This document shows, in pieces, positions 3,701 through 48,726 of a DNA stretch of 64,000 nt. Made by a program: the position numbers and the translations under genes. This DNA comes from Vicugna vicugna (taxonomy: Eukaryota). Location: positions 1,252,419 to 1,316,418 of the forward strand of contig MU058198.1 in the NCBI GenBank assembly GCA_013265495.1, read 5' to 3'. The notes below the pieces were generated by a model. It was not told the DNA's origin. It did no database searches and was given only the letters and a program-made list of their open reading frames with translations. Numbering within the stretch: the first letter of the stretch is position 1; every line of letters begins with the position of its first letter.

Positions 3701-6700
3701 GAGGGGGGTTTGGCCAGGGGCAGAGGCAGAGAGGGTTACTTCAGGCAGAGGGACCAGCACAGAGCGGAGGGAAGACTGAAAGTTATGAGAGAACCTGAAA
3801 TGACGTCCAAGTGCCTCAAGTTCAGGTGGCAAGGAGAAAGTAGTGGCAAAGGAGCCTGGAAAGATGGGTAGGTGCTACACTGGCAGAACCTTGTGGGTCA
3901 TGCATGGCAAGGGTCCCGGATTGTTACGCAGTGAGGAATGGGAAACCACGGCTGGACTGAGTGGCATGATTGTTTTCTGTTTGTAAAAGGTCACTTTGGA
4001 TGGTATGCAGAGAATGGGATGAAGGCAGGCAAGAATGGGGGTGGGAAATTCAAACAGGAGACAAAGGGTGATGATGATTTCAATTTGGATGGGAGGAGTG
4101 AAGATGGAGTTAAGTGGATGGGTTTAAAGGACAATTTGAAGGAAGCTGATAACAAGATGTTCTGATGAATGACATATGGTAGAGGAAGGAGGTCAGGGAG
4201 ATGGAGAAGCCACACACAGTCGGGCAACGGGCTGGATGCAGGAGTCTTTTGATGAAGTGAGGAGCACAGGGAGACACAGCTACGGGGTGTCAGGGAAAGA
4301 TGACAAGTTCAATTGGGTAATTGTTGACTTAGGGGTGCCCAGGTGATGTTCAACAAAAGATGTGAAGTTCTAATTACAAGGTAAATGGGGGGACAGTGGT
4401 GGAGTGCCTACCTAGCATGCACAAGGTCCTGGATTCAATCCCCAGTGCCTCCATTTAAACAAACAAACCTAATCCCCCCCCCCAAAAGGAAAAAAAATAG
4501 GAAAAAAAAAAGCTAAATATGTCCTGGGGATGTAATGTACCATATGGTGACTATAGTTAACAAAGAGTGTTGTATATTTGAAAGTTGCTAAAAGAGTAGA
4601 TCTTGAAAGTTCTCATCACAAGGAAAAAAAATTGTAGTTATGTGTGCTGATGGACGTTAACTTATCGTGGTATTCATTTCATAGCTTACAGGTACAGCAA
4701 ACCATTATGCTGTACAACTAAAACCAGGTCACTGTTATATGTCCATTATGTCTCAATTTTAAAATGTATGAAAAGATGGGATGAGAAGTGAGTAGCTGGA
4801 TTTAAGGGCATAACATCTGAGATGGAGACAGAAATTTGAGAATCATCAACCTCAGATATAAGAGATGACGAGTGAAGAGATGTAAGAAACAGCCTCAGGA
4901 AACCCCAGGGTCCCTCACTCCCAGCCTTCTTCACACACGACAGGCATTCTCACCAATAAGGAGGGAGATGTGAATGAGGTCAAGAAATAGGAGTAATCAG
5001 AGGAAGCTGAACATAATTGTAGGAACTTGGAGCCCCACGGGAAGAGTGAACAGGCCATGAGAGAAAGGTGACATAGAGACATGATGGTCTCAAGGGGAAA
5101 ACAAACAAACAAACTCAGAGTGGGAGATGTATCTGCACTTCTGTGTGCTTGACTCAACGTGATCATGGCTCTGGAGAGACGGTTGCCATGGTAACAGGTC
5201 TGCTGTGGGGATACTGAGACGTTGAGGGCGGGAAGAGAGTAAGCCAGGGGTGGAATCTAACAAGAAGAACATGTGCGATCAGCTTCACAAAAGGTGACAC
5301 AAAGTCCAGCTACTCTCCAGAAGAATAAAACAAAACCATAAAATCTCATCAAGACAGAAAACAAAACAAAGAAAAGCTAAGAGCACCCTTCTCTAAGAAA
5401 ATTCAGCTTCCCGGGTTTGGAAGAAATAGTCAGGACCTAGAGCACTGTGGTGTTGCATAGACAGTTGCAAGTTCCTTTGCTAATTATTTTAATTACTATA
5501 TAAGAGTGTTTGGATACAACAGACTCCCGTAGGGCATCGTGTGTGTGTGTGTGTGTGTGTGTTTGTGTGTGTCTGTATTGGCTGTAGACTATCAATGGTG
5601 TGACATTAGGCAATTCAATTTCTCTCCTTAGTATGGGTAGACCCCTTACAGCTCTGACAACCTTAGGAAAATCTGTACTCAAATTACTCTCTGGTCCTCA
5701 GTTCCCTGGTTACTGATACTCCAAATCAGTCTTCACCACCCCAGCCTCTCCTACCCCATTCGCTTGCCACTGGCTGTTTGCAGCACACTTCTCTAGGGAA
5801 GGAAACAACCCTCCCTTCCATTTGGCTTCTCCAGGCCTCGTCCTCATACCCGGATCTATCCAGCTGAAACCCAAAGACATTCTCTATAGGCTGCAGGTGT
5901 CTAACACCAGGGGCATCGTGGCTGGGGACGAAGTGGCCCAGGCAGTGGACACCGTGGCCCCTGACTGCCCTGCTCTGAAAACAAAGATACTGGTGTCTGC
6001 GAAAAGCCGGGAAGGGTGGCTGGACTTCAAGACGCTACTACGGTGAGTGTGAGGGTCCTGTCAGAGTGGGTGTGGTGTGGTGCAGTGTACTCCTACCACG
6101 TGTCTTAGCCTGCGTTCCCACCAAAATCAGAAACTGAGCCAAGCACTTATGTGCGGGGTCTTCATCCGGGAAGTCTGAGGAGCAGGGTGTGGGACTGGGG
6201 AGAGTGAAGCAGGAAAGAAGTAAGAGTTAATATAAGAGTTTATTATTTTTTTAAATTTTATTTATTTAATTTATTTTTTGAGGGGGGAGGTAATTAGATT
6301 CATTTATGCATTTATTTTTAGAGGAGGCACTGGGGGTTGAACACAGGACCTTGTGCATGCTAAGCATGTGCTCTAGCTCTTGAGCAATACCCTCCCTTCA
6401 AGAGTTTATTATCTTTATTGCTGAGTCACTGCCTGGGAGAAGTAGGGCTTGATCTGCAGGGACTTTCTGAGGAGCACATAGAATGTCTCCCCAGATTGTC
6501 CACAAAAGGATTGGCAAGCATTGACCCATCAGCCCCTAACCTCCTTTGGTAGAGGGCTGCCCGGGGGCATTATCTACCCTACACTCTGGGCTGCACACAC
6601 ACGCGTGCAGGATGGGATCAGAGCCGATGCCATGGCGGCAACACACAGTGAATCACCTGTGGTTCACGCTAGAAGCAACACCAAGGAACTCACCCAGAAC

Positions 6701-18700: not shown

Positions 18701-21700
18701 CATTTAATCCTTCTCACTACCCTGTGAAGTCCTCAGAGCCAAACTACCTGAGTTTAGAACCCTACTCCACTTTTTGCTGTGTGACCTTGGACAAGTTTTT
18801 GATCTCTCATGCCTCAGTTTCCTCACTTGTAAAATGTGTATTATAATATCTCAGAGAATTGTTATAGATATCTACAGGCAGAAATATTTGTGAAACACTT
18901 AGAACAGTGATACATAAGTAGGTAAAATAAAAGAATAGTTGTAGAGCCAAAATATCATTCCCATTATACAGATGAGGAAAACTGAGCCTCAGAGATGAAG
19001 GCACAGCCACACTGTGCACTTCAAGTATTTCCTGTGCACTGTTCCACTCTGTTCTCACAGCCAGTGAGGTAGTTAAGGCATAGGTTTCCCCATATTCAAC
19101 AGAAGAGGAGACAGAATCAGAGGAGTTGGCAGATTTAGCTCCAAGGCCACAGAGTTAATGCCAGCAGGGGCTGCACAGTGGTCAGGAGAAAAAGTCAGGC
19201 TGGTGGTTAAGAGATCTGGCTTCTGATCTCAGCTCTGCCATCTGTAATGGCTGTGTGGTTGTGGACTTGCCTCTTGACCTTTCTGATCTTCAGTTCCCCT
19301 ATCATCCTAATGAAGGAGCTCTGCTATGAATTCCTTGTGCCACTTTTAAACCCAGTGACCAAACATCCAATCTGGAGCTCACATCCCCACACTTGAACAA
19401 TATATAAAGATGCTCTGACAAGGGACAAACCTCAAGCCTTCTCGCTGCTCAGGAACAAGTGCCCCAGCTGCATAGAGAGGTCCAGCCATTATAGAAATAT
19501 GCACATTGACTGCAGCCCTGGGGGCTGGCTGGTATATCTCTAGAACTTTCAAACCTAACAACCTGGACCCAAGAAAAAAATATCTAATAAATCTTGGTGC
19601 CCTTGAGCGGTGTTGTGGAGTGGTGTCATGGAAGAATTAGGGAAGGTGGAATCAGTTGGGGATAATGCCCTAAAGTGTGGGTAAATGAATGTATCAATAT
19701 TATCCACCAGGTTGGACCCAGGGGAGCTGATGAGAGACCCTGGGTGGAATAAATAAAATAAATGAGGAAGTTTCAGTTTCACCTAGGGGCTGGGGTTGGC
19801 GGGTTGAGGGCAGTCCCATCATGTGTGAAATGAACAATCTGCACAACTGGTCCTGTCAGCCCTGGGGCAGAGGATTTAGGCTTTGTAGGTACAATGACTG
19901 TCTTTCTGTGATTACCAGGACAATCTTGAGAAGACAGTAGCCAACATTAGAGGGGACTTTTGGCTGCTGGGGGACCAGGGAATCAAGGATCAAGATGGAT
20001 ATTTCTACTTCGTGGGGCGGGCAGATGATATCATTAACTCCAGCGGGTAAGCTTGGTTTCTGGGCTGGAAAGGGTAATCTGGATCTTTATTCTATCTGGT
20101 TCTAGACCTTTGGGGTGAGCTAGAGGTTGAGTGTGCAATCTTCTCTGAAGGGGAGGTTCTTCTGCAGGTACCGGATTGGGCCCTCAGAAGTGGAGAATGC
20201 CTTGATGGATCACCCTGCTGTGGTTGAGGCAGCTGCAGTGAGCAGCCCGGACCCCTTCCGAGGAGAGGTGATGGGGGAGCTGTAGCCTGAGGGTGTGCAG
20301 ATGGTAGTTAAGAGTATGGACTCTGGGGATGGATAGTCTGGGTCCAAATCTTGGCCCTGCTGGTTTACTAGCTGTGTGTCTTCAGGCAAGCTACTTAGCT
20401 TCTCTGTGCCTCAGTTTACCATATGTAAGATGAAGGGTTCTTGTGAGGATTAAATGCATTAATATTTGTAAAGTGTTTGAAACAAGGCCTGGCATGTAGC
20501 AAGTGCTAAATAAAATCTATTATTGTGGGACTGCCGGGATTCTATCCTGTTGTTTCATATTTGAATCAGAATCTGATCCCTGAACAGAATAGAGGAGGGA
20601 TCTGAGCCAAGAATTACAGCCCTTGTGCCATGGGGCTAAAGTGAGAGTAGGGGAAGAAGAAAGACCCCTTTAATGCCAGGGCTAAAGAAATAGACCCAGG
20701 TGAAATTTAAAGGAGCTTGTTGTATGTGTAGGGAAAGGTTAAAGAGGAGAGGTGTGGATAAATGTCCAAGTATATTTCGGCAGGGTGAAAATTAATAATA
20801 TCGTACCTTTGGCAGGTGTGGGACATAAGACCATGGAAATCATAGGCTCCACCAGGCATATGGGGCCCAAAACCCTGGGTGCCAAGCACTGAGCTAAGCC
20901 ATGCTGTATATGATTTCTTTTTACTTCCCATGAATTTAAGTATGAAAACTGGATTTCTATTTCACAGATGGGCAAACTAGCTTGAAGAGGGTAAACAAAT
21001 CATTTAGTCTTATTGTCCTTAATCTTTACTTTTTTTTCTTCTCTTATAACTAGTTTCTCCCCATTGCTCTCTATTGCCCCTGGGGTATGAGGTGATCCTG
21101 GTCTCAATCTTGTAGATTGCCCTACCTGTGCATGCAATAAACAGCTTGAGAGTTGGAACCTTGGCCATGCTTGTCCCCAGTGTCTCCCTTTCCCTTACCC
21201 AAGCTACCTGGAGGTGAAAATGAGGGGATAGGAAGGTGGTGGCTATGGTGGAAGTCTTAACACTGGTTTCACGTTATCTCAGGAGATGGCAATGCGCTCT
21301 GATTCTTCTCCCTTGGCTCTCATCCTTGCTGCAGGTAGTGAAGGCATTTGTGGTCCTGGCCCCACAGTTCCTGTCCCATGACCCGGACCAGCTCACCAAG
21401 GAGCTGCAGCAGCATGTGAAGTCGGTGACAGCCCCGTACAAGTACCCAAGGAAGGTAAGGTCTCTGGAATCCCATGCTCCTCCAACTTAAGGAAGGAGAG
21501 ATGGTTCTCTTCTTATATTTCTCTTTTTCAGGCTGAGGACAAAGCCTCAGATCTAAAGTTCTGCCTGATTATGACCAAGAAAGTCCAAAAAGGATAATCC
21601 AGTAACTGTCTAAATGCCTAAAATTGGCTTCAGTCTTTAATTCATTCTCAATTGAAAATCAGATGCTTCCATGGGAACAAATTCTAACCAGTACCTGGCA

Positions 21701-32700: not shown

Positions 32701-33094
32701 TATAATTACTCCCACAAGTGACAGAATCATGCAGAAAATTAGGTCTTAGAAAGGAAATGAAAGACCATGACACCCCATCGTACCCCTAGGATAAAAACTC
32801 CAGATGGAGAGACTTGTATGTGTAGTTGGGACATTAGAATCATCTTCAAGTCACTCCAAATTTGGGGGCAGTTATGACCAGAGATGGGGAAACCACCATT
32901 TATTGGGCATTTGCCACATGCAAAGCATTGTCCTAGGCATTTTATGAAGATTGTTGTGTTTTGTTTCTGCATGGCATCTACAAACTTCAGATCATAGCTG
33001 TGAGAACAGTGTAGGCACTTAGGCACCTCAAAAAGGTGCCCCTTCCCTTGTGGCTTAAGGGTTTTTTTGGCATGTACTCTTCCTAGAAAAAAAT

Positions 33095-33100
33095 AATAAA
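33095..33100 (+). terminator. Candidate ACSM2 polyadenylation signal
   Basis: First AATAAA seen after the stop codon (an ATTAAA lies near 32584); usage not demonstrated. Confidence 0.3.
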
Positions 33101-34551
33101 ATAATTTGTTAAATCAAGATCCTAAGGATTCTTTTTGGGGGAAACAAAGATGGGCAGAGTGATGTTGTTGAAGGATAAACCATGGAGTTAGTTCTTAGGG
33201 CCTCTGGGAGCCCAGAGCCAGGGATCCAGGAGAGAGAGGGATCTCTAGTAAGGACTATGAGAGCTTCCTCTCTGATCCAGAGATGGAAGGTGAACATTCC
33301 TAGCAGGTTCAAATGAGCTGGAGAAGAAAGCGAAGGCTCTCTGAGGGTCTATGAACTTTCATCTTAAGAATATTTAATAATAATAGCAACAATAATAAAT
33401 ATGTCAATCACTTATCAAGTACTTGTTAAGTGTCAGGTCCTATGGCAAAATACACATTCATTACCCCTCCTTAAAGTTCACAATCACTCTTCAATTCAGG
33501 TACTATTATTTCCTCCCATTTTACAGAGGAGGAAATTAAGACTTGGGGAGATTAAGTAATATGATCCAAAGTTACACAGCTGGGAAGTGACAGCATTAGG
33601 TTCAAGCTCAAGCCTATCTGCCTACAATGCCTATACCCCCCTTCCATTTGCTTGCCTTCTTCTCTGGCCCTTGATAAAATGCTTCTCTCAAAATCATCTT
33701 TTAAAATATCCATGAGAGAGAGGTACAAGGTGGCAGCATAGGAAGACTCCTGAGCTCACCTCCTCCCAGGGACACACCAAATCTATACCTACATACAGAA
33801 TAATTCTTCTTGAAGAAGCTTCAGGATGGATTGAATAACTACTGCACACAGAAGGACCACATAGGAATGGGTAGGAGATATGGAGACAATATCCATGGGA
33901 ATCCCTCCCACATCACAGTGATCTGTGGTAGGAAGGGATATCGCTGAGGGGTCCAAATGCAGACTTGCTCACCCTGGGACACAGTGAAAAAATAGTTTAA
34001 AGAGTACTTCAGCTATACAGAAAATGTACCCATTTGCTAACCCTAGAGTTTCTGCCAAAAGGGCAGAGAACTGCTGGAGCCCTATCCAGGAGGTGCACCA
34101 TTGTTTGAATGCTCCTAGAACTCCCTCTGGCCCATGCCTGCTCCACCTCCAGCAAGCAAGGAAGTCTTGACCCAAGAACTGCCCTTAGCCAGGATCTCCT
34201 CCAGCCCCAACCACCCCACCAAGGTGGTCTTGGGTGCAGTGCTCCCCAGAGCCTTTCCCTAGCCTAGGCCCATTGTAACTCCAGCTGGCCTGCCAAAGGT
34301 GTCAGGTACAAGCAGTCTATACAGGAGATGCTTCCTCAAAAGTTCACTCTGTCAAGACCACGGGAGTTACCTCTTTTGCCTAATTCATAGAAACAAAAGT
34401 CAGACAAAATGCGGAGACAAAAAAAAATGTTCCAAATGAAAGAACAAAATAAAATCCCAGAAAAAAAAAACCTTAATGAAACAGAGGTGAGTAATTTACC
34501 TGATAAAGTGTTCAGAGAAATGGTTATAAGGATGCTTATTGAACTTAGGAG

Positions 34552-35169
34552 TGCGGGGGGCCACTCATAACCTGAGGACTGCCGAGCACAGAGGTTGGGC
34601 CTAAACTCCCACAGTGCAGGGCGTCAGGCTCTGAGGTTGATTCTAACAAAGACAATCTCTGTCCCGCCACCCCTTTGAAGAATGCACCAGGTGCATTAGA
34701 GCCTGAGGAACATCCTGAGCTATTAAGTCACTAAGGACCTTTGGAAGGAGAGATACAATCGACACACAAGTTAGTGATCTTAGCCTGAAGAACAATCACC
34801 TGAGTGAATAGTACACGAGTCACGATGTTAGCTTAGAGGAACAATACCTTAGTTTATGATCTTGGTTTCGGGAACAGTTAATCTTAGTTTATTGAGAACT
34901 GTAAACAATAATGATGTCTGTAACAATATACAAGTTAATGATTTTAGTACACGATGTTAATGTACCCTAAAACAATACCNNNNNNNNNNNNNNNNNNNNN
35001 NNNNNNNNNNNNNNNNNNNNNNNNNNNNNNNNNNNNNNNNNNNNNNNNNNNNNNNNNNNNNNNNNNNNNNNNNNNNNNNNNNNNNNNNNNNNNNNNNNNN
35101 NNNNNNNNNTCTTTCTTTTTCCTGCAGCACAGGTTTCTGGACCTGATCGATTGTCGGCTGGCTCCGACA
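34552..35169 (+). mobile_element. Young LTR element (class II/betaretrovirus-like by its 6-bp TSD) spanning an assembly gap
   Basis: TG...CA termini; perfect TSD taggag at 34546-34551 and 35170-35175; retains CpGs; host L1 ORF1 resumes after it. Confidence 0.8.
34980..35109. other. Assembly gap (130 N)
   Basis: Run of N. Confidence 1.
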
Positions 35170-35558
35170 TAGGAGAAATTGCAGAAACTTAGAACTTCAG
35201 CAAATACTCAGGCATGTGAGAAAGAACCAATCAGAACTCAAGAATACAATAAGTGAAATTTTAAAAAAATACACCATAGGAAATCAACAGCAGATTAGAT
35301 GATACAACAGAATAGATAAGTGATCTAGAAGACAAAATAGCAGAAATCACCTGAACAGAACACTAAAAAGAAGATTTTTTTTTAATGAGGAGAGTTTAAG
35401 GGATCTATGAGACAAACATGCCCACTCTCACCTCTTTTATTCAACATAATGTTGCAAGTCTTAATTCAAAAAGATATACATATCCCTGTGTTCTTTGTAG
35501 CATTATTTACAATAGCCAAGACATAAGAGCAATCTAAGTGCATATTACAGATGAGTGG

Positions 35559-35559
<1 letters not shown>

Positions 35560-35606
<47 letters not shown>
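35560..35606. repeat. (CA)n microsatellite inside L1
   Basis: Direct reading. Confidence 0.92.
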
Positions 35607-35608
<2 letters not shown>

Positions 35609-36565
35609 GAATATTACTCAGCCATAAAAAAGTATGAAATCTTACCACTGTGGCAACATGAATGAATATGGAGGGTATTATGCTAAGTGAAATAAGTCAG
35701 ACAGAGATTAAAAAAAACCCATGACTTCACTTATATATGGAATCTAGAAAACAAAACAAATAAACAAACAAAACAAAAGAGAAACAGGCTAACAATACAG
35801 AGAACAAACTAGCAGTTGCCAGAGGGCATGAGGGTGGTGGGACCAACAAAACAGGTGAAGAGAATTAAGAGGTACAAAATTCCAGCTGTAAAATTGCTAA
35901 GCCACAGGGATACAATGTGCAGATAGGAAATACAGTCAAAATATTGTAACAACTTTGTATGGTGACAAATTAACTGGTCTTATTATGTTGACCACTTTAT
36001 AATGTATAAAAATATCAATTCACTATGTCAGACATCTGAAGCTGATATAATATTGTATGTTAATTATAACTCAATAAAAATAAATTAAATATCCAACAGA
36101 ATGTAAATATACTGTGATATACTCCTCTCCTGGAGTCCACTAAAATTCACCCGAGTTTTATGTTTGGCCTAGTAGAGAAATGCAATTTGCTAATCAAATA
36201 GCAACACTTTCTTTTTCACAATCTGGATTCATCACTGTTGAAGGGAATATCATTTAACTGATGCTTGCCAAGAATTTAAAATCTAGCAGATTGATCATTC
36301 TGACACTTTCACGTTAACTTTATCCTAGAGTGAGAATGCTTTTGATCATAACCCCTTACCTAGTGCCCAGTCCATGATCTCCTTACCTTCTCCAGAGTCA
36401 GGAATGAGTGAAGGTGGGAATCCATACTCTTAGGGGAAAATCTATGACTTACCCAAAGTACAAAATTTGTCTCTCCTTCCTTTACTCCATCCTTTCATCC
36501 ATACGGTTTGTGTAAAGGAATCAAAATATTTGGCCAGTACCTTTCAGACTGGCTCACTGTAACTA

Positions 36566-36849
36566 CGGGCATACCTCATTTTATTGACCTTCCCTTTATT
36601 GTGCTTCACAGATATTAGGCTTTTCACAAATTGAAGGGTTTTGGCATCCTTGCATTGTCAGATTATGGTTAAGGTATGCACATTTTAAAGACATACTGCT
36701 ATCACACACTTAATAGACTATAGCATAGTGTAAACGTAACTTTTATATGCACTGTGAAACCAAAAAATTTGTATGACTTGCTTTATCGGGATATTCACTT
36801 TATTGCAGTGGTCTGGAACTGAACCTGCAATAGCTCCAAGGTAATCCTG
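36566..36849 (+). mobile_element. Tigger1-derived non-autonomous DNA transposon
   Basis: ta|cgggcatacctc ... aaggtaatcctg|ta: imperfect TIRs with TA TSD; internal text gtgcttcacagata and ttattgcagtggtctggaactgaacc. Confidence 0.8.
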
Positions 36850-38106
36850 TAAAATGAAGCCACCGACTCTTTTCTTTTTCATGATGAGATAAAATAGACT
36901 ACCTCATCCTTCCTGTCTTTGTCTAGTAAAAGTCTTTAAGATACCCCGGTAGCACCCTAAACCAAGAAGTAATGATTGCCTAGTCCCTGTCACCCAGTAC
37001 AGAACGTGCATAACTTCCCTGGACAATCATTAACTCTAGAAGATCCACAGACTAATTAACTTTTGTTTGTGTTGATGGCATAAGTTGACCCTGGATTGCT
37101 GCAATTATCTGTAGATAGAAGGAGGAACATACCCTTAAAAATAACAGTCACCTCACTTACATTCAGTATCATTTCAACATCAGGTACAAGTTGTGAAATG
37201 GCAGAAGGGGTGATCATCCTATCACATGATAAAAAGTTTGAACTTTATCTGGAGAGTGAGGAACACAGTCAACAATGTTTTCCTAAATGATTACCTTGGT
37301 AGCTGAGTGTTAAATATATCAAAGGACAATTTGAGAAATGCTTCTTTCTTTGTGGAACTTGGTAACTTAGTGACTAAGGTGGATGGGGTAAAAAGGGAAA
37401 GGAAGCACACAGAAGGATGATTTTTTATTAGGTTTTTTAGATTTTTGACTAGGTTTTTGATGAGGTAAACTGGAGTAGGTGGTTATAAGACTTTCTGAGA
37501 ACAGGTTTGGAGGTGGGAACACTGAATTCAATTGTGGTCATGTTAATTTATCTATGTTACCTATGAAGTACTGTGGTTAGTATATATTTATAATCAGCTG
37601 GATATTTAAGTTTGAACTCAGGGGAGAAGTAAAGATTTTTAATGTGAATAGAAAATTAGAGAGAGAAAATGAGTGAGGTGAAAACGGAGTACAGAAGGAA
37701 CGAGAAGAACTGGTGGCTGAGTGGATGACTCCTTGAAGAGCAGCAACATTTACAGAGAAGAAAGAGGACGAGAACCTTATAATCAATATTGAAAAAGAAG
37801 ACTCAGAAAAGGCAGAGTGTGATAACAGAAAGTTGGAAGAGAGCAATGTAAGAGTTGATCAACATTGCTAAGAATGGCCAAGAGTCAGAACTAAAGAGGA
37901 TCCACTGCATTTGGCAGAAAGAATGCTCAAGGATTTTTGTTGTTGTTGTTTAAGTTTTGATGGAGTAACTAAGGGTAGAAAACTGATGGTTATGGGTTAT
38001 TAGTGAGGGATGCAAAGACCTAGAAACAGCTAATTTAGTCTATTCTTTTTAAATAAACATTAATTAAAAGGAGGAGGAATGAAAGAAAGGATGCAAAATC
38101 AAGAAA

Positions 38107-38672
38107 CATAGGGGAATAAAATTCATGACCCCAAAATGTGTAACTCTGGAATAAGGATTAATTTAGACTGATTATTTTTAAGAAACAGAAGCCTCAGAAG
38201 TTTTTCTTGTTATCTCCCCCTTCACTGCCTAAAATGATTTAGATAAAGGTCCTGTTCTCAGAAAAAGCTATCAGCAGAGACATCTGCAAAGAATATGGGC
38301 TAGTTGTGGTGTGGGAAGCCCAGCAGGGCCTAGACATCAGTATCCACTCTCTCTTATTGTCTCTGCCTGGCCCAGAGAATGGTTATTTACCAAACATTTG
38401 CTTTTCCATCTCCATGTGAATTGTCTTCCTTCTCTTCTGAAGACCCAAACCCCCACCCTCAACATTTTCTTTTGTTGTTGGCTGAAGAAGGCATTTAAGG
38501 TGAGGGCTTTGGCCATTTTGGAGGTAAAATCAGTTTTCCTGGGTCTCTCCCATTTATATGTTTTATTAAACTTTTATTTGATTTTCTCCTGTTAATCTAT
38601 CTCATGTCAATTTAATTCTTAGATAAGCCAGAAGAACCTAGAAGTATAGAAGGTAATTTTTCCTCCCTCACA
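38107..38672 (+). mobile_element. ERV1 solo LTR (MER34-like)
   Basis: ccccaaaatgtg...attatttttaagaaacagaa...gaagaacctagaag...tttttcctccctcaca; same family as 31076-31637. Confidence 0.72.
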
Positions 38673-38730
38673 GAAGCAACTTTTGAAGAAGGAAGGGACT
38701 TGAACAGTGTGACAAACATTATGTCTCTCC

Positions 38731-39115
38731 TGTTATAGATGGAAATGTACCCTCCCCCCAAACTTCCTATGTTGAATTCCTAACCCCTACTACCTCAGAC
38801 TGTGACTGTACTTGGAGATAGGGCTTTTAAAGGAGCAATTAAATTAAAATGAGGCCATTAAGGTGGGACCTAATCCAATCTGACTGGTGTCCCTATAAGA
38901 AGAGGAGATTAGGATACACAGAAAACATCAGGGGTACAAGCACAGAGGGACAACCATATGAAGAGCAAGAGGATGGACATGGACAAGCCAAGAGGAAACC
39001 ACCTCTGCTAGCACTTTGATCTTGGCCTTCTAGCCTCCAGCACTGTGGGAAAATAAATTTGTTTTTTTAAGACACCTGGTGTGTGTCATTTTGTTATAGC
39101 AGCCCTAGCAGACAA
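38731..39115 (+). mobile_element. MaLR solo LTR (MLT1B/C-like)
   Basis: tgtgactgtacttggagatagggc...ctaatccaatctgactggtgtccctataagaagagg...tttgttatagcagccctagcagac. Confidence 0.78.
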
Positions 39116-39981
39116 TGGCCATTCTCCATCACCTCTATACCACCTTGTTCATTGATTCCCACCCCACCACCCCATCACCGATTTTGTTAAGAAACAGAGT
39201 GAGCTAACCACTGGACATAAATTATGACTGAGTTAAGCCAGTCTTTTTCAAGTTCTCTTCAATTAAGGCAATTGGAAAGTTTCAGTTTGCTACTTTTACA
39301 TCTACCAGTTTTTTGTGGTAGAATATATTTGTTATTCAGCAAATATTCACTCTCTACTCACCCCAGCTCACCCCCGACCCCAGGGAGGAATATAGCTCTC
39401 TGCTCCACGAGGTTGAACTTTGGCCAGTGGAATGCTAGTGTGCATGATGGAAGCAGAGATTTTAAATGTGTTTGCACAATTTGACTTGATTTTTGGTGCT
39501 TCAGCCATCCACTATGAGAAGAAGATGTCCTGGAGAGTCACTGGTCTCAGACTTGTGAGAGAGAAATAAATGTGTATTGGTGTAAGCCACTGAGATTTGA
39601 GAGCTGTTTTTATGCAATAGAATCATAGCAATAAATAGCTGATGAAACCTATATTTTTGTTTTTAACAAAAAGTGAATGAGACTAGTCGCAAAAATTGAG
39701 AGGCAACTATGTCCAAATGGAATTTAATAACAATGACTATTTTTGCTTTCATTGTATTCATTTTTAATTTCCTCCATTGTGGCAAGTAAAATAATTTTTT
39801 ACTTCTGGTAGTGGTACAGAGTTTCATTTGGGTTAGTATTTTTTTTGTTTTTTATTTAATTTTAAGGAAATAAATATAAAAGGAAATATTGAGTAAGTAA
39901 GAATAGAGGTAATTGGGCATGGTTATAGCAAAAAGAAAAAAGATATAAAGAAAGAGAAAGAGCGAAAGAGCAAAAGAGTGA

Positions 39982-40084
39982 AAGGAAGGAAGGAAGGAAG
40001 GAAGGAAGGAAGGAAGGAAGGAAGGAAGGAAGGAAGGAAGGAAGAAAGGGAGAAAGGAAGGAAAGGAAGGAAGGAAGGAAGGAA
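39982..40084. repeat. (GGAA)n microsatellite
   Basis: Direct reading; a smaller GGAA/GGAG tract is at about 16995-17050. Confidence 0.92.
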
Positions 40085-41823
40085 AGATGCAACATGGATG
40101 ACTGAAGTTTGAGAAACATTAGCATAAGAATGGGGCAAGCTTACAGAGGAGAAGGGAAGGGATGAGGCCAAAATGAAAATCCGAAAGAAAAGACAAGTAG
40201 TGTCATCTTTCCTGAAAAGAAGTAGCCAAGGATCTGTGTGGAAAGCAGCTAACGTAGAGTTGAAGGTATGAGCTTGAGTTCTGTTACTACAGAGGATGCC
40301 CTGCTCACTTTAGTCCTCAGTTTCTCATCTGAGAAATGGGAGTGACCCAACATCTCCACGGGGATGCAGTAGACATTCATGGATATCATGCCAGTGGAAG
40401 GACCTCACAGGGTTCAGGGGAACACCTAAGAAGAGGTTCAAGTTTTAGAGATGTGAGAGTGAGGAACTGAAGTGGGGGCCAAGAGAGTGAATGTGCTCCC
40501 AGCCAGACTGGGCACAGCAAACCAGCTGTGTGAACTCTGATCAGAAGTAACATCTTCTTTAATTTAACTACCCTTAACTAAACTTTCAGTCGACCGAGAG
40601 AGCCAGTCTGCCCACAGATGGAGAAACAGAGGGGAGGAGTAAGCAGGGTGGGATCATTTGCTCAGAAGAGCAGGAGTACTTACAGAATCTAAGATCCAGC
40701 TTTTTGGTAGAGTCATGACTTTTTTTGTTGTTTTTTTTTTTTCTCCACCCACTCATGGGTACCATTCCATTGCCCACATCTCTCCAAGGCCTGGGAACCC
40801 TGAAAAGAAGAGGGTCCTGGGATAAGAGAAACAGAGACCCCTGGGGCTTTGAGCTGGATAGGGAGCCTCTCCCACAATTGGTTTGGAAGGTCCAGATGTC
40901 CCAGGAAGCCCCACAGAGGGTGTGACAGAATGGATATCTGAAACCCGCAATACAGAAAGGGCCCTACAGAGAGTCAGGCTCTCCGCCATAACTTGATATT
41001 ACTAGCTCCCCACGTGGTGTCCAGGACTATTGAGTCAGAGGAAGAGATTATAGAGAATTCGTATCAGCTCTTAAATGCCTTAAGCCAGAAGTGACATGTG
41101 TCACTTCCACCTGGAGTGCATTGTCCAAAATTGGAATTCAATAGCTTCCCCTAACTCCAGAAGAAGCTTGGAAATGAGAGAGACATGCAAGTGGAATCTT
41201 CAGAGAATTCTACTGTATGCCATACACCCATTGTTAGGGTGAGAAAACTGAGGCACAAAGGGATAAGAGAACTGCTCAGTGTCATGGACCTGGTAACTGG
41301 TAAAGGCCAGGCTGAAACCCAGGCTGCTGGCCCCAGCGCCTGTCTTCCGGACCGGAACACTGGTGTTAGTTCCACACGAGAGATTTCTTGAGATCCAGAG
41401 ACTGTCTCATGCACTGTTCCTCCTGTTCCCATTATCTTCTCAAAGGTGACTGCCTCTTCTGTTTGACTAACAGGGTTTCTTGTACTTTATAATCTTTAGC
41501 TTACTGTAGCCAGTCAACTTGCCCTGCCTTCTTACTTGCTCCTCTCCGTAACAGGAGTCTAACCTGAGCTGAAATTTCATCATGAACACATCGGCCAGGA
41601 GGAGCAAGACCCACATCTCGGAAGTCAGGCTTGCCCCTCAGCCCTGGCAGGGGTGTTCTAGTAGTCTCCAGCGATCTTTCATGGTGGCTTTGAGCAGAGG
41701 TATTTTTCTCCCTGGTTCAATGGAGGTTGAGAGGGAAAAGGTGATGGGAAAGTTGGACCAGGATACTGGAGATCCCCCACCTCCTAACCACACCCCAAAT
41801 TGTCTCTAGACATTTTGTTAGAA

Positions 41824-41880
41824 ATACTGTCTATGAAACACTTGGGCTAGGTCTTGGACTGGGACTTTGCACGTTCAGTT
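41824..41880 (-). repeat. 57-bp perfect inverted copy of 42820-42876
   Basis: Base-by-base reverse complement matches 57/57. Confidence 0.95.
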
Positions 41881-42819
41881 GTTAGACAACTAACAAATAG
41901 TTGTTAGAAAACTAACAAGCCACTACCTGTGACATTCCAGGCTTACCTAATGTAGCATCAATCCAGAGTCTACATGCCTGAGCCAGGTGCTTTGCAGACT
42001 GTACATCCTACAGAGCTTTCAAAGATCACATGGAACCAATCTTATTAACAACCACCCACTCCTCCATTTTTCGGATGACAATATCAAAATTAGAAGAGGT
42101 AAATGGCTTGCCACGGGCCACCTTGTAAGTGGCTGTGCCAGGATTCAAGCTCCAGACTTTGGGATTCCAAAGACCGTGCATTGTTCGAGTACACCAAACT
42201 GTTTCTCTTAAAATCCTGAGTTAATAAAACAGCGCACGTGGATTATGTTTGCATTGTGCTATGTACTTTTCATGTATTATTTCATCTAACAGTAATAAAG
42301 ACAGCAACAAAGAACTACCGCCGGAGACAGGTGTCACTGTTATCACTCCCATCTCACAGAGAAGGAAACTGAAGACTAGAAACAGGAGGTCCATGAAGGT
42401 CAAAAAGATGTAATGGCAGACCTGAGGCTTAAGCCCAAAACTCCCCACCCCCACAGCACAGGCTGTAATGACTAGCCAACACTGGCACTTGGCTGTCATT
42501 CAAATGAAAATATTGGACGTACTGGACTGGGGAGGAGGAGCAGGTTAGCCTCAGAGAACTTGCAAAAGTGCTCCATTTGGCTTAATTTATTCATTCACAC
42601 TGCAAGGCATGCCCACAAGAATCGGAGAGTACTTTATAGTTTGTTTTTCGAACTGATTTTTTCTCTCCATGGGAGCTTGTGATTGCTTTCTGCCCTTTTC
42701 TATGTGAGTATCTCCTCCCCCTTTGAATGATTCAATTCCTGCCAGGTTCTCCACCCCCAGCGGTGGCCAGGAACTAAGTCCTGTTATGTGAACACTCCTG
42801 GGAACTTCTGATCAGAGAG

Positions 42820-42885
42820 AACTGAACGTGCAAAGTCCCAGTCCAAGACCTAGCCCAAGTGTTTCATAGACAGTATCAGGTAAGA
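42820..42885 (+). promoter_or_regulatory. Candidate ACSM1 regulatory element or upstream exon end: HNF4-like CGTGCAAAGTCCC followed by strong donor CAG|GTAAGA (42879/42880)
   Basis: CAAAGTCC core fits the HNF4A motif and ACSM genes are liver/kidney expressed; no transcript evidence available. Confidence 0.35.
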
Positions 42886-43184
42886 CAAAGGTGAATGACA
42901 CCTTATTTGGGAGGGAATGTGTGTGTGTGTGTGTGTGTGTATCTGTCACAGGGCAGCAAAGTGTATACAGAGCCTTGAACTTAAAATCTGAAGGCCCAAT
43001 TTCAAATTCTGGCAATGCCACTTACAGACCTTGGGCACGTCTGTTAACTTCTCTGACAGTTCATTTCCTTTACTGCAAAATGAGAATGATGGTACTGAGT
43101 GAGAGGGATTGATGCGAACATAAATGTCATATGCCTAGCACCATGGCTGGCTCATAGGTGATCGACTGAATGTTAGACAGCTCA

Positions 43185-43344
43185 CCAAGTGTGGTGAGAT
43201 GCATTCCAGTTAAACTCACAGTCTCGTTAGTTGAAGAATTCAGAGCAATGTCAACTTGCTACCCCGTGATTAGAACTTAACACTTGATCACAATTACCTG
43301 AGTGTGTACCAGATACTTTTACCTGCTATCTGGTTTCTTAAATG
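43185..43344 (-). repeat. 160-bp inverted copy of 46401-46560
   Basis: Ungapped reverse-complement alignment, 153/160 identical. Confidence 0.95.
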
Positions 43345-44235
43345 TGGTGAGCTGTGCAAGGAGGGTGCTAAGGGGAATAAAAAAGACCCAGAAGATCAAC
43401 ACTGGAAAGAAAACTCCACTCTGCAGAAGTTTGTTCACATTATACAAAAAAAAAAAGTTTTTAATTATCTAATTTGGGGGTTGGCTTCAGAATTTGCTGG
43501 GAGCTAGAGAGCACCTCAACATGTTATTGAGCCCTTATTGTAAAAGTGTCATGTAGATTATCTCACTAATCTTTGTGGAAGCCAGATAGCAGGCATTATG
43601 ACTGTGCCCCCCAAGGTCAGAGGCGTAAATGGTGGCCAGGACCTCTTAGCTGGTAGACAGTGGAGTCGAACCTGGCTCTGTAACACTAGGACCCCCTATA
43701 ACACACTAAGTATGTTGCCTCAGAAGATAAATAGCTTTTCCAGTCCGAATGCTTGTTTGCAGGACCTCTTGGCACTGTGTACCAGTCATGTGGGATTGGG
43801 TCCATCTAATGCCTTCATTTTAACTTAATTACCTCATTAAAGATTCTGTCTCCAAACAGAGTCGCATTTTGGGGTGCTGAAGGTTGGGATTTCAACACAT
43901 GAAATTTGAGGGGACACCATTCAGCCCACAGCAAAGGATTCGCTTCCTCATTATTACTCTTCCTTTCGTTTTGGCTTTTAGCCACTTATTAAAGTGTTGT
44001 GTACGCTCTCCTTGAGTATTTTAAGGAAGATCCTGAGGTTACTTACATGCCTTTGTATAAAAAGAGCAACTGATATTCTTGCTCTAACTCAGCTCATGCC
44101 TGTGGAGGGAGGTATGTGTTGGGAAAAAATAGCAGAGAAGGCAGGCTTTTAGAACCAATTCTGCTACTAAGTTTGTCTTGCAACCTAGGGGAAATTCCTG
44201 TCCCTCTTGGGATGTTGGCCAAATCAAGATTTTTA

Positions 44236-44268
44236 TTTTATTTTATTTTTTTATTTTTTTTTTTTATT
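44236..44268 (-). mobile_element. Poly(A)-only retroinsertion (AATAAA plus A tail) with 15-16 bp TSD
   Basis: caaatcaagattttta at 44220-44235 and 44269-44284 flanks a T-rich tract; minus-strand target reads TTT/AAAAA. Confidence 0.8.
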
Positions 44269-45989
44269 CAAATCAAGATTTTTAAAGTCAAAGATCCCCA
44301 AGGATTGGACAGGTACAGTAAATGGAGAAGCAGGTGGGTGTGACAAAATGAGAAGTGGCAGAAACTATGTCAAATTAGAGAACCTTCCATGTAAATTGAG
44401 CAGACAGTTCTCAGCTCCAGTCAGTTGGTACCAAGTTGAAATGAAACCCCAATGTTGCTGGACCTTCTAAGCTTTCAGGAGAACTCTTCAAGGCTTTTAA
44501 ATAAAATCTCCTAAATTTTAAATGTTGGCAATTCAAAATTTTTCCTCCAAAGACTGAGGGCTAAAGGTAGTATGTCTGAAGACCAGGTTATGGGCCAGCT
44601 AATATCTTAGGATCTTTCTTCCTTCAAGTGCTCTGATAAAACAAAAGACAGTACTGTTGACTGACAGGCACTGAAATGGAAGGGGGCATACTTTAGTTCA
44701 CGTGGCCCAAGGATCCACACTGTCAAGCAGGGACGAAACTAAGGGATGAAACTTTCACATACCTCTCCTCTTTTCTGCAGACAGACAATAGCAGTGTTCT
44801 GAGGACAGCAACAAAATTAACTGGCATTAGGTTACTATGGGTCTAAACAAGTTGAAAATAAATTGAGTCAAGTTTTACCAATCTATTCTACAGGTCTGTT
44901 GTCAGGCAGTATCATCTTACTGCTGAAACTGAGGAGGAGGGAGCTTAATTGTTTACCATGATAAAGTGCTTGAACCTCAAGACTATTTCTGACGTGGCTT
45001 TCTTCCAATTTTCGCAATCAAACTTTAAGAAGGGCCCTAATACATGAGAGTTTCACTCCCAGGTAGAAGCATTTGTTGGGATCTGGAGTGACAAGTTTTA
45101 CTTCATGGGTCAAGTGATAGATCGGTAATCGTTGCCTGGAATGCTGTCCTGGGAAAGACCCTGGTGTCAGACCCCAATCCAGTAGGGAAGTCGCTGTGAT
45201 ATTAGCCTCATCTGTCCTGAGTATGGTTGGGCATATTTGTCAATATTCTTATAGCCCCAAGTGACGGGACCCCAGTCTCAGGCAGGAAAAATTGCTGGCT
45301 CATCGAATTCAGTTCAGGATATTAACAAGAGAAGTGAAGAGGGGCCTCAGGAATAGTATGAACCAGCAAACTGAATGCCTCTGAGATACTCTCTGCTCCT
45401 TATTTCTATGAAAATTTTACACAAACATTTTGGAGAGGGATTATGACTCGCCCAGTTTGGATTTTAAAAAATCTTGGGAAATGACTGCTTGACTCTGGAC
45501 CAATCAACTTTGGACAGGTGGTGGAATCATTTAAAAACTTGACAGTTTCCATGAGAACCACATATTTGGGTTCAGTGGGAAGAGAGACCTCCAGAGCAAG
45601 GGTAGTATGAGATACAGGACTTTCAAAATGGTGAGTTTCTACCAAAATGAGGGCTACATGGCTGCCATCCCGGGGGGTGAGGGAGAACAAGAAGACCCTC
45701 AGGGATGCGTGCCAACCTTATCTAGTAGCTACAGCCCTGCCCCATCATTTTTTTTTTTGCCTTGTGATTCCTCAGTTGAGAAGAGAAATCCCACCTAAAT
45801 CAGTAAGTTGTGCCTTCCAAATTCCAATGAGCTCAAACAAAGCCATCACTCTAGCAATTAACCAGGAATATGCCTTCATTTTGCAGAGGAAACTCCTGCT
45901 CCAGCGATCAACCTATTTGCCATCTCTTCCCAAGGCAGGTGGTGAGCTGAGAATTCTGTGCCTGCTTCCTGAGGACTGCTCCACCCACC

Positions 45990-46181
45990 ATGCAATGGCT
46001 AATGAACTTCCGAGTCCTCCGGGGCATCCTCAAATCCTTCCATGGCTTCCACCCTGCCCCTCAGCGCCTGTGCAGACGGTTTTTATCAGGACCTGGAGAC
46101 CCCAGCTGGAATGACTACGTTAGACCCAAGGAATTTAATTTTGCAAGTGATGTAGTAGATTACTGGGCTCAAATGGAAATG
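45990..46181 (+). CDS. ACSM1: ACSM1 coding exon 1 (acceptor probably caaggcag| ending 45938)
   Basis: MQWLMNFR...[16 protein letters not shown]; donor ATG|gtaagg; 192 nt. Confidence 0.94.
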
Positions 46182-48726
46182 GTAAGGAGGCACCCTTGAT
46201 GGGGGTGGTGAGAACAGGATTTGCTTCACTGGTCTTATCTTGCCCCTTAGAAGACTCAGGGGCACCGAACCAAGAACAGCTTCTGACTGAGCTTGTAAGT
46301 GCCCTGAGAAAAGCTTATGTTTGGGGGTTCAATTCCCAGCTTGGACATTTCCTCAATTCTCTGAGCCCCAGTGGTTTTACCTGTGAAATGGAGATAATTT
46401 CATTTAAGAAACAAGATAGCAGGTGAAAGTATCTGGTACACAGTCAGGTAATTGTGATCAAGTGTTAAGTTCTAATCACAGGGTAGCAAGTTGACGTTGA
46501 TCTGAATTCTTCAACTAACAAGACTGTGAGTTTAACTGGAATGCATCTCACCACACTTGGACTTGACTTCAGGATACATCCACAGGGAGGGGACTCCTGA
46601 TTGTGCACGTGAACACCTGACACATAACTAAGTCATATCATCTGTCTTCCTATGAGGATAGCAAGTGCAGCTGTGGTGCTCCCCATCAGATACAACCATG
46701 AGCGTGGCTTCAGGGTGTGTCCAGGGAATCCAGTCTCTGTGGTCTCTGCTGAAAGACACACATGCTTGGTTTGTCTTTTCCCAAGAGACAGACCACGAGA
46801 GAAGTGGTGACACTAGGATTTGGGATGGACAATGGGTGGTGTTCCAGCTACTAAATTCCAGCAGGTGATGTTCACATCGTGAAAACTCACTCAATGCTGT
46901 CTTTGTACAGAAGACTGAATTCACCTGAGGTGGAGGCAGAGAGTTGATGTATTTTTAATTTCCCATAAACAAACGTTCGTAGGTTAGCATTCGAAGCTTA
47001 TGTGCCTTTCACAGGGACTTCTTCCCTACCTCCTTCTTTTTCCTTTTTCTGAATTTTCATGGTAACTCCAGGGAAAATAGAGCCCTCAGTTAGGAAGAGC
47101 ATTTTTTAATGTGCCATGTTGAGAGCTTTGCATTTAATATTCTGATTAGATGGGCACATTTATTATCCTCACTTTCTAAATGGGGAACCTGAGGTTCCAA
47201 ATGTTCAAAGAACCTACAGAATAAGCCAAACAAGTGAAGAAGCAGGATTTAGGTCCAGGCTGTTGGGTTCTATGATCCTCTGCCTAATCTGGCCTCACAA
47301 TCTGATCATGTCAAAACATTTCTGCCTTCAGACTATAAACTGACTTTCATCACTGCCCATCCCAAAAGTCTGGTTAAGACCTTTTGAATCACAAGGTGGG
47401 CCAGAGAGGGAGGACACAGAGAAGGCGAAGCGATGCCATCACTTTTCTCTGCATTTATCTTCATAAAAAGTCCTACACATAAACCCATGGAGATAATAAC
47501 CGAGTGAACATTTGCCCAGAGAATCCCCCATCTTTGTTAGGTTTTATATCACCTTTTTTTAGTCATTGTCAGTTCCTCCATATCTTCACATTTTTCGTAT
47601 CCCCAGCATCCCCATCTCATTAATGTTCATTCTCACAACACTTCTGACCTGTCTGCTTCTACTTTTCCAATTGTCTTAATGAAGATCAGTGTCTCTCGAG
47701 TGACGTGTGGGCCTGACACTTAGCTGTCCCTTAGTACACTTTTGTGTCATTAATTAATTTTGAAACTTACCTTGTAAGCACAAAAGACCTTCCAGAGGGC
47801 ATGAGTGCTCTCCAGATACCAGAGTCCATGCCGGCTTCCTGTGTGACCCCTTACAACTTAACAAACATCACTGATCCATAGCCTAATGAACAACACAACC
47901 CAGATCATAACAAATTACATAATTTATTTTGACTCCATTTTCAACGCATTACACTTGTAAAACCTTTAAGTTAGAAATCTAACAGTTTACTGTGATTTTT
48001 TTTAAGTGTAAGACAGCCAACACAGGTCCAAGGGTGGAATAGAGTCACTTATTCAGGCCACCAATTTATAACCCCTGACTGTCCTTGGAAATTAAACCTT
48101 ATATCAATTTCTAAGGCCCCTAGGCTCCTAGAATATTACACGTCAGTTGATTCCTGGAGTAGCCTCCCACATCTATTCATGAGAAGTCACATTCATGTCC
48201 AAAATCATTCATTCTGTCTCTTTGATACTTCATTCATTCATTCAGTTAAGATTCAGTGAATACCTAACATGCGCCAAAGCATTGTTCTAGAAAATAGGGG
48301 TAAAAAAGTAAACAACATACAATTCTTCATTTTTCCTCTTTGGACAGTGTGATTCTCCACTTCATGTCCCAGGATAGGTAAGCACAGCATTAAGTGATAT
48401 TAACTTCTGTTTGTTTCGGCAAAAGTCATGACAGAAGCAAATTTGTCCTACCAATGTTGATGCAATTTAGTATTAAAATATTGCTCAATCAGTGTAAATA
48501 TCTACAAACCACAAAGCTTAAGAAAAGCAACAGCTCAATGTCATTGCCACATAACGTCTGGCTCTTTGCTCTATAATATTTCCCAAAAGAAATTGATTTA
48601 TATGCTGACAAACTTTCTAAATTTCTTAATATGCAATAGTCATGTCTGTCTAGATTTTTTTCTGGGCCAGTGGGTCTGTGTTTTGTGGTTCTTGAATTTA
48701 AATCAATCTATCTGTCTGTCTATCTG

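What the first reader, a model, noticed from the sequence alone, without database searches (positions are those of the whole stretch)
43177..43355. 160-bp inverted copy of downstream DNA inserted into an 11-bp-stem hairpin
Seen: 43185-43344 is the ungapped reverse complement of 46401-46560, with 7 mismatches, 3 of them CpG transitions. Its flanks acagctcacca (43177-43187) and tggtgagctgt (43345-43355) are perfect reverse complements. The 9-mer tgtggtgag occurs at both ends (43190-43198, 43343-43351). Removing the insert restores acagctcacca-agtg-tggtgagctgt, a stem with a 4-nt loop. The donor begins ccaagtgtggtgag, matching that hairpin. The 46401 copy is continuous with a MIR, so it is probably the donor. 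Inference: microhomology-primed templated insertion (Pol theta-mediated end joining or template switching) at a cruciform-prone site. No TE hallmarks explain it.
Basis: partly seen in the sequence, partly recalled or inferred. Interest (0 to 1): 0.8.

Follow-up and report, generated by a model that had tools for sequence, protein, structure and literature searches.

The report
Two inverted repair patches near ACSM1
Upstream of the start-codon exon of a camelid ACSM1 gene, a 160-base piece of nearby DNA is present a second time backwards, with a second 57-base case 1.3 kb away; both are likely ordinary DNA-repair scars, and the small hairpins around them were probably written by the repair itself, not there beforehand.

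Summary
43185-43344 is the ungapped reverse complement of 46401-46560 (153 of 160, three CpG transitions). An 11-bp inverted repeat brackets it; none of 63,123 other 160-nt segments reaches 10.

Both fit a common class: inverted duplications under 1 kb within 5 kb of their source (Sudmant 2015), likely made by microhomology-primed template switching.

An independently pre-existing hairpin needs a chance 14-nt donor match (4 of 3,851 positions); a 9-nt match, 5 copied bases and snap-back build the same hairpin (1,138 of 18,179 ends). 'Continuous with a MIR' was not supported, and one test pointed the other way, so donor polarity rests on the junction scars.

No outgroup DNA or reads were obtained, so the empty site is untested. 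The scan noted this kind of scar before on other DNA, in this genome and others, but not this sequence. New member of a known kind; the close pairing and the 22-of-29 likeness of the two junctions are unexplained.

The parts
43185..43344 (-). Event A: 160-nt inverted copy of 46401-46560, likely the inserted copy
   Evidence: 153 of 160 ungapped; junction scars are on this copy
43177..43187 (+). Left arm of the 11-bp inverted repeat; its last 3 nt overlap the copied segment
43181..43198 (.). 7-bp stem with 4-nt loop at the left junction; 43185-43198 is donor-matching sequence
43343..43355 (+). Right junction: 9-mer repeat of 43190-43198 and right arm (43345-43355) of the 11-bp inverted repeat
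46401..46560 (+). Event A: likely donor, in the intron after the ACSM1 start-codon exon
   Evidence: only a 3-bp boundary inverted repeat here; MIR-based polarity inconclusive
41824..41880 (-). Event B: 57-nt perfect inverted copy of 42820-42876
   Evidence: 57 of 57
41879..41918 (.). Event B: chain of three overlapping 7-bp stem, 4-nt loop hairpins at 11-nt period
41815..41824 (+). Event B: 10-nt direct repeat, second copy at 41901-41910
42820..42876 (+). Event B: likely donor; ends 3 nt before a splice-donor-like site at 42879/42880
42951..43176 (+). MIR-like repeat copy (family name recalled; the region was the seed of the window model) ending at the left arm of event A
46341..46399 (+). 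MIR-like core abutting the 46401 copy
   Evidence: E 2e-5 with a model built without this region
45887..46181 (+). ACSM1 start-codon exon (acceptor-like site just before it, ATG at 45990), lying between the two 160-nt copies

Best explanation
The 160-base segment at 43185-43344 is an inverted copy of 46401-46560 that was likely written into a broken or stalled DNA end by repeated rounds of microhomology-primed synthesis, and the hairpin around it was probably made from the same donor during repair. Shown: the inverted copy, the 11-bp arms, the repeated 9-mer, and a second event of like build at 41815-41918. Inferred, read on the bottom strand: the right-hand end shares 9 nt with donor 46547-46555. 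Copying 5 more donor bases allows a 3-bp fold-back with a 4-nt loop, and snap-back synthesis of 8 nt yields the left arm. A further priming on the same donor (14-nt match at one end, 2-nt at the other), in the same or a later event, adds the 146-nt body. A variant with only 2-3-nt primings makes both arms new. The short junction pieces look like polymerase-theta snap-back products; the long tract may need a more processive polymerase (MMBIR-type). Event A is roughly 6-15 million years old by central estimates (range 2-44) and likely neutral.
For: Exact copy with sharp ends. The scars lie on the 43185 copy: boundary inverted repeat 11 bp versus 3 bp at the other copy, and at most 9 in 63,123 controls. 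Four of the window's 8 perfect stems of 7 bp or more with a 4-nt loop sit at the two junctions. Cost of the rival order of events: a 14-mer has another copy within 3.5 kb at 4 of 3,851 positions, a 9-mer at 377 of 3,643. A 9-nt match plus an available fold-back occurs at 1,138 of 18,179 random ends, while a perfect stem of 11 bp or more occurs once elsewhere in 64 kb. Event B's 41877-41910 parses into 6-10-nt direct and inverse copies of neighbouring DNA. No target-site duplication and no terminal repeats on the shared segment. Literature, passages only: inverted duplications under 1 kb within 5 kb are 54% of 229 resolved human inversion sites (PMC4617611); template switching itself creates perfect inverted repeats (PMC7954356); polymerase theta extends stem-loops from 2-3 terminal pairs (PMC11292364); germline templated insertions use up to five templates (PMC8421209).
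Against: No outgroup sequence or reads were obtained, so neither the empty site nor the polarity is shown. The snap-back reconstruction restates the inverted repeat; it shows economy and is not an independent test. MIR evidence partly favours the opposite polarity: DNA after 46560 extends the 46341-46399 core in register with 3 of 19 window copies (z 3.9-5.4; empirical p 0.002-0.04 on 1,158 controls), while the segment's own start does not (p 0.64-1.0). The summed gain and profile tests were not significant either way. Polymerase-theta primary tracts are rarely over 10 bp and distal templates were under 0.1% of repair (PMC7165422). The 22-of-29 likeness of the two junction zones is not explained.
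Confidence: 0.68

Rival explanations
1. One reading: an 11-bp hairpin of independent origin existed at about 43180, broke as a cruciform, and was patched from a donor that happened to share 14 nt with it.
For: The excised site folds stably (-13.6 kcal/mol versus -2.6 for a right-arm-only site). Event B's simplest empty site is also a 7-bp hairpin. A subset of great-ape template switches start at pre-existing structure (PMC7954356, passages).
Against: It needs two independent rarities at one spot: a perfect stem of 11 bp or more (1 elsewhere in 64 kb) and a 14-nt match within 3.5 kb (4 of 3,851). Stems longer than 4 bp were not favoured as primers in Drosophila SD-MMEJ (PMC5728401, passages).
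Confidence: 0.1
2. Reverse polarity: the segment is native at 43185-43344, and the 46401-46560 copy is the insertion, splitting a MIR whose 3' part resumes at about 46555-46561.
For: The MIR-like hit ends at 46399-46404. Removing the segment gives in-register alignments with 3 of 19 window copies (empirical p 0.002-0.04). A 5-nt micro-repeat sits at the 46560 boundary.
Against: All hairpin scars are at the 43185 copy and would be chance (0 of 63,123 controls). Profile tests with matched nulls gave p 0.30-0.54 for the excised form and 0.20-0.30 for the intact form. The tail profile scored the segment's own start higher, 4.6 versus -0.3 bits, neither significant. By eye both stretches align as MIR 3' ends.
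Confidence: 0.1
3. Capture of a fragment released by two close meiotic (SPO11) cuts and joined, inverted, into a neighbouring break; two events within 5 kb would mark an old recombination hotspot.
For: In mouse germline, hotspot-derived inserts of 15-349 bp occur, and local inverted inserts have long microhomology at one end and little at the other (10.1101/2020.06.23.168138, passages). This matches the 14-versus-2-nt parse and the clustering.
Against: Those local inverted inserts came with deletion between the hotspots, whereas here the 3-kb interval and its exon are retained. Ligation of a fragment does not explain the chained hairpins without added synthesis.
Confidence: 0.06
4. 43177-43355 is a small non-autonomous DNA transposon with 11-bp terminal inverted repeats.
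For: Perfect 11-bp terminal inverted repeat.
Against: No target-site duplication (best 3 nt, offset). The second copy lacks the arms. Only two copies in the window. 4% divergence is far younger than the 40-million-year figure for the last activity of mammalian DNA transposons, which the camelid paper quotes as an earlier belief (PMC8605555, passages).
Confidence: 0.02
5. Assembly or library artefact (fold-back chimera), chiefly for the 57-nt event B.
For: Event B is 57 of 57 identical and hairpin-rich. No reads could be laid.
Against: Event A has 7 differences, including decay of all three CpG sites, one copy each, which an artefact would not give.
Confidence: 0.04

Closest known systems
'Inverted Dup' structural variants of the 1000 Genomes phase 3 set (Sudmant 2015, PMC4617611; passages read)
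   Same: A stretch under 1 kb duplicated in inverted orientation within 5 kb of the other copy (160 nt at 3,056 nt; 57 nt at 939 nt), with no sign of retrotransposition.
   Different: Those are human polymorphisms with a known empty allele. Here the empty allele was not seen, event A is old, and two events lie 1.3 kb apart.
Polymerase-theta templated insertions and SD-MMEJ snap-back (PMC7165422, PMC5728401, PMC11292364; passages read)
   Same: Junction pieces of 5-11 nt that are direct or inverse copies of flanking DNA, several rounds, 2-4-nt primers, new inverted repeats.
   Different: Primary tracts are rarely over 10 bp and come from within about 30 bp; here 57- and 160-nt tracts come from 0.9 and 3 kb away. 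Enzyme dependence cannot be tested.
MMBIR-linked templated insertions, MMB-TI (PMC8421209; passages read)
   Same: Inverted copy of a nearby template with junction microhomology; multi-template germline cases exist.
   Different: That survey required the template within 100 bp.
Class 2 templated sequence insertion polymorphisms (PMC5110952; part 1 of 4 read)
   Same: A DNA patch of similar size (73-414 bp in the cell-line set) at a presumed break, without target-site duplication or poly(A).
   Different: Their templates are distant; these are local and inverted.

Membership tests
Inverted Dup (Sudmant 2015) | Duplicated stretch under 1 kb, inverted | tested here: met
   160 nt and 57 nt, both inverted
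Inverted Dup (Sudmant 2015) | Within 5 kb of the other copy | tested here: met
   3,056 and 939 nt between arms
Inverted Dup (Sudmant 2015) | Not tied to retrotransposition | tested here: met
   No target-site duplication for event A; no poly(A) at either insert
Inverted Dup (Sudmant 2015) | An allele or relative without the extra copy | not testable with these tools
   No own genome held, no runs listed, no related contigs
Polymerase-theta templated insertion / SD-MMEJ | Junction sequence is direct or inverse repeat of flanking DNA | tested here: met
Polymerase-theta templated insertion / SD-MMEJ | Short microhomology at each priming | tested here: inconclusive
   2-4 nt or up to 14 nt, depending on which bases are ancestral
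Polymerase-theta templated insertion / SD-MMEJ | Short tracts (3-30 bp) from templates next to the break | tested here: not met
   Main tracts are 57 and 160 nt from 0.9 and 3 kb; only the junction pieces comply
Polymerase-theta templated insertion / SD-MMEJ | Dependence on POLQ | not testable with these tools
   Fixed germline sequence
MMB-TI (PMC8421209) | Template within 100 bp (definition of that search) | tested here: not met
MITE / cut-and-paste DNA transposon | Terminal inverted repeats | tested here: met
   11 bp at 43177 and 43355, absent from the other copy
MITE / cut-and-paste DNA transposon | Target-site duplication | tested here: not met
   Best 3 nt at an offset
MITE / cut-and-paste DNA transposon | Dispersed multi-copy family | tested here: inconclusive
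   Two copies in 64 kb; genome-wide count and repeat library not available
L1-mediated insertion (class 1 TSIP) | Target-site duplication plus poly(A) tail | tested here: not met
   A has neither; B has an 8-10-nt direct repeat but no poly(A)
Inversion with staggered breaks (duplicated breakpoints; model recalled) | Interval between the copies is inverted | tested here: not met
   For A the enclosed exon is on the same strand as later ACSM1 exons; for B no marker was informative
SPO11 hotspot-derived inverted insertion | Donor and acceptor are break hotspots | not testable with these tools
   No hotspot data
Known structured RNA family | Rfam match above gathering score | tested here: not met
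   2 matches at E 0.44-0.77, far below gathering scores, in 41000-47500

The most novel reading that the evidence does not exclude
A fossil, sequence-directed repair hotspot in front of ACSM1 where the scar feeds itself. A first round builds a hairpin out of a donor 3 kb away; the hairpin then breaks and, now carrying 14 nt of that donor, pulls the same donor in again. The same process struck twice within 1.3 kb at sites sharing 22 of 29 bases (2 of 59,115 geometry-matched controls, post hoc), which would imply a common recognition motif. The 160-bp arms might also bracket the start-codon exon in the pre-mRNA and give camelids a private skipping or circle-forming switch.
Probability: 0.1. Interest if true: 0.62.

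Novelty: new member of a known kind. Interest (0 to 1): 0.3.

Why it matters
As it most likely stands, it matters little: it is a neutral example of a common mutation class. Its use is as a test case. One alignment to camel and non-camelid genomes can say whether junction hairpins cause or follow such insertions, and whether one donor was visited twice. If the two events share a recognition motif, it would point to sequence-directed germline breaks near a promoter. If the arms pair in the pre-mRNA, the insertion could change ACSM1 splicing in camelids; nothing here shows that.

Tried and rejected
Outgroup DNA: no own genome is held. The one search for sequencing runs, filtered to PacBio, listed none; that is not evidence that none exist, and it left no runs to lay. 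An ACSM1 exon profile gave 177 pattern matches and 0 confirmed relatives in metagenome contigs.

MIR copies from outside: 2 loci from metagenomes, 2 from genome contigs and 0 in two viral scans. They gave no significant support either way; L003 was left out of the model because its tail runs off the contig. No MIR consensus could be read from papers. The camelid repeat libraries in the supplements of PMC8605555 were not held; they bear on the transposon question.

Marmot N-terminal extension as a marker of an upstream exon at 43111-43158: the only exact 5-residue match in six frames, but tied with unrelated sites over 16 residues, so rejected as evidence.

Which bases are ancestral at the end of the 42951-43176 MIR: three readings scored alike against three window copies.

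Selected RNA duplex: of 4 transitions, 2 give G.U on each strand, so no bias. Rfam and phage records: nothing. A full-text search for the ACSM1 start site gave one irrelevant hit.

The first junction-likeness null (P 0.0014) and the first boundary null (2 of 29,855) did not exclude the sites themselves; both were redone with them excluded.

Full report
Observation. The window's self-comparison shows 43185-43344 as the ungapped reverse complement of 46401-46560, 153 of 160 identical, with sharp ends. Three of the seven differences are CpG transitions. These are the only three CpG positions seen in either copy, and none is kept in both. The 11-bp arms (43177-43187, 43345-43355), the repeated 9-mer and the 7-bp inner hairpin are as described. 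Among 63,123 other 160-nt segments of the window, the longest inverted repeat touching both ends was 9 bp, so the arms are not chance.

Setting. 45990-46181 encodes the first 64 residues of ACSM1, 98% identical to the alpaca cluster. Later ACSM1 exons follow on the same strand, and an ACSM paralogue fills 592-32211. The start-codon exon lies between the two copies and keeps the gene's orientation, which excludes a staggered-break inversion of that interval.

A second event. 41824-41880 is a perfect inverse of 42820-42876. It is followed by three overlapping 7-bp stems with 4-nt loops at an 11-nt period, and bounded by a 10-nt direct repeat (41815-41824, 41901-41910). 41877-41910 parses into 6-10-nt direct and inverse copies of neighbouring DNA. 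Only three pairs of 40 nt or more at 90% identity or more exist in the window; two are these events, and the third (4413-4452 with 6323-6362) appears to be a SINE fragment. Four of the window's eight perfect stems of 7 bp or more with a 4-nt loop are at the two junctions. B may be younger than A (0 of 57 versus 7 of 160), but the difference is not significant (Fisher p 0.19).

Was the hairpin there first? For an independent hairpin this match is a coincidence. A 14-mer has a second copy within 3.5 kb at 4 of 3,851 positions, and a perfect stem of 11 bp or more occurs once elsewhere in the window.

A cheaper route exists on the bottom strand. The right flank's 9-mer matches donor 46547-46555. 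Five more donor bases allow a 3-bp fold-back with a 4-nt loop, and snap-back synthesis gives the 8 bases observed left of the junction, departing at the ninth. A 9-nt match plus a fold-back is available at 1,138 of 18,179 random ends. This reconstruction restates the inverted repeat and shows economy only. A further priming on the donor then adds the body. A variant in which both arms are new needs only 2-3-nt primings; comparison with three window MIR ends could not separate these readings. All of these steps are inference.

Which copy is the donor? A model built from 21 window copies with the region masked hits 46341-46399 and stops at the segment's edge (the family name is recalled). Pairwise tests favoured the opposite polarity. 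With the segment removed, the DNA after 46560 extended the core in register with 3 of 19 copies (z 3.9-5.4), while the segment's own start reached z 1.9. Against 1,158 window controls, p was 0.002-0.04 versus 0.64-1.0. But the summed gain was not significant for either form (p 0.14-0.16). A tail profile leaned weakly the other way, and profile tests with matched nulls gave p 0.20-0.54 throughout. By eye both stretches align as MIR 3' ends, so either polarity leaves one coincidence. The scars decide: 11 bp of boundary inverted repeat at the 43185 copy, 3 bp at the other.

Age. With assumed rates of 1.0-2.2e-9 per site per year (range recalled), event A dates to about 10-22 million years on all sites and 6-13 on non-CpG sites, with outer limits 1.6-44. 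The Camelini-Lamini split is put at 11 (fossil) to 25 (mitochondrial) million years (PMC1939714, passages), so camels may or may not show the empty site.

Comparison with what is known. Of 229 resolved human inversion sites, 54% were inverted duplications, nearly all under 1 kb and within 5 kb of the other copy (PMC4617611, passages). Both events meet that description. Template switching creates perfect inverted repeats in the product (PMC7954356, passages). Snap-back synthesis from 2-3 paired bases is a shown activity of polymerase theta (PMC11292364, passages; PMC5728401, passages). Its primary tracts, however, are rarely over 10 bp and distal templates are rare (PMC7165422, passages), so I do not file the long tracts under it. 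Germline multi-template insertions are documented (PMC8421209, passages). Meiotic hotspot inserts are a minor rival (10.1101/2020.06.23.168138, passages). Transposon and L1 hallmarks fail, though genome-wide copy number could not be counted. Of PMC5110952 I read part 1 of 4; of PMC8605555 passages only, supplements not held; of PMC5381342 and PMC6344866 only a supplement search with no hits. Searches are search listings. I make no claim that this locus is absent from print beyond.

Function. If transcription starts upstream of 43185, the arms would pair around the start-codon exon (duplex -274 kcal/mol). The nearest strong donor-like site upstream of the exon is at 42879, one of three in 33000-45890, but the start site is not known. 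The marmot N-terminal extension did not place an exon. The mismatches show no wobble bias (2 and 2), and Rfam finds nothing. Neutral decay is the default.

Unexplained. 43171-43199 and 41880-41908 agree at 22 of 29 positions; 2 of 59,115 geometry-matched controls reach this. The comparison was chosen after seeing it. Pieces of site A also recur inside donor B (8 nt at 42855, 7 nt at 42867) and in the exon's untranslated part (11 nt at 45939). An 11-mer recurs within 3.5 kb at 39 of 3,748 positions.

Earlier scan notes. Nothing near this place or like this sequence. Similar scars were noted on other pieces of this genome and in other genomes; these are unchecked leads.

Verdict. Real, and richer than reported, but a new member of a known kind. 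The empty site, polarity and copy number remain untested for lack of outgroup DNA. Interest 0.3.

Noticed in passing
41815-41918 with 42820-42876: Second inverted templated insertion (57 of 57) inside a chain of three 7-bp hairpins with a 10-nt direct repeat.
   Followed up: yes
43171-43199 and 41880-41908: The two junction zones agree at 22 of 29 positions; 2 of 59,115 matched controls do so. Post hoc and unexplained.
   Followed up: partly
46555-46650: Looks like a second MIR 3' part starting right at the end of the 160-nt segment; it could mean the segment interrupts a MIR.
   Followed up: partly
44220-44284: A T-rich tract flanked by a perfect 16-nt direct repeat, the pattern of a target-primed poly(A)-only insertion.
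   Followed up: partly
42879-42885: Strong splice-donor-like site 3 nt beyond donor B, the nearest upstream of the ACSM1 start-codon exon; candidate end of a non-coding first exon. 42830-42845 resembles an HNF4-type site (motif recalled), which event B would have duplicated.
   Followed up: partly
43191, 43344, 45939, 46205, 46554: Five of the window's six copies of one 8-mer lie in this 3.4-kb stretch; 43344-43354 equals 45939-45949 over 11 nt.
   Followed up: partly
43111-43158: Only exact six-frame match to five residues of a marmot ACSM1 N-terminal extension; not significant over 16 residues.
   Followed up: yes
42807-42816: 10-nt perfect palindrome just left of donor B.
   Followed up: no
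592-32211: Upstream ACSM paralogue on the + strand; the exons at 20169-20273 and 21332-21460 are much closer to ACSM1 (77% and 86%) than the others (35-63%).
   Followed up: no
L003, L004: Two short low-coverage contigs in bacterial assemblies carry a MIR-like core motif, probably mammalian contamination.
   Followed up: no
34980-35109: Assembly gap of 130 N.
   Followed up: no
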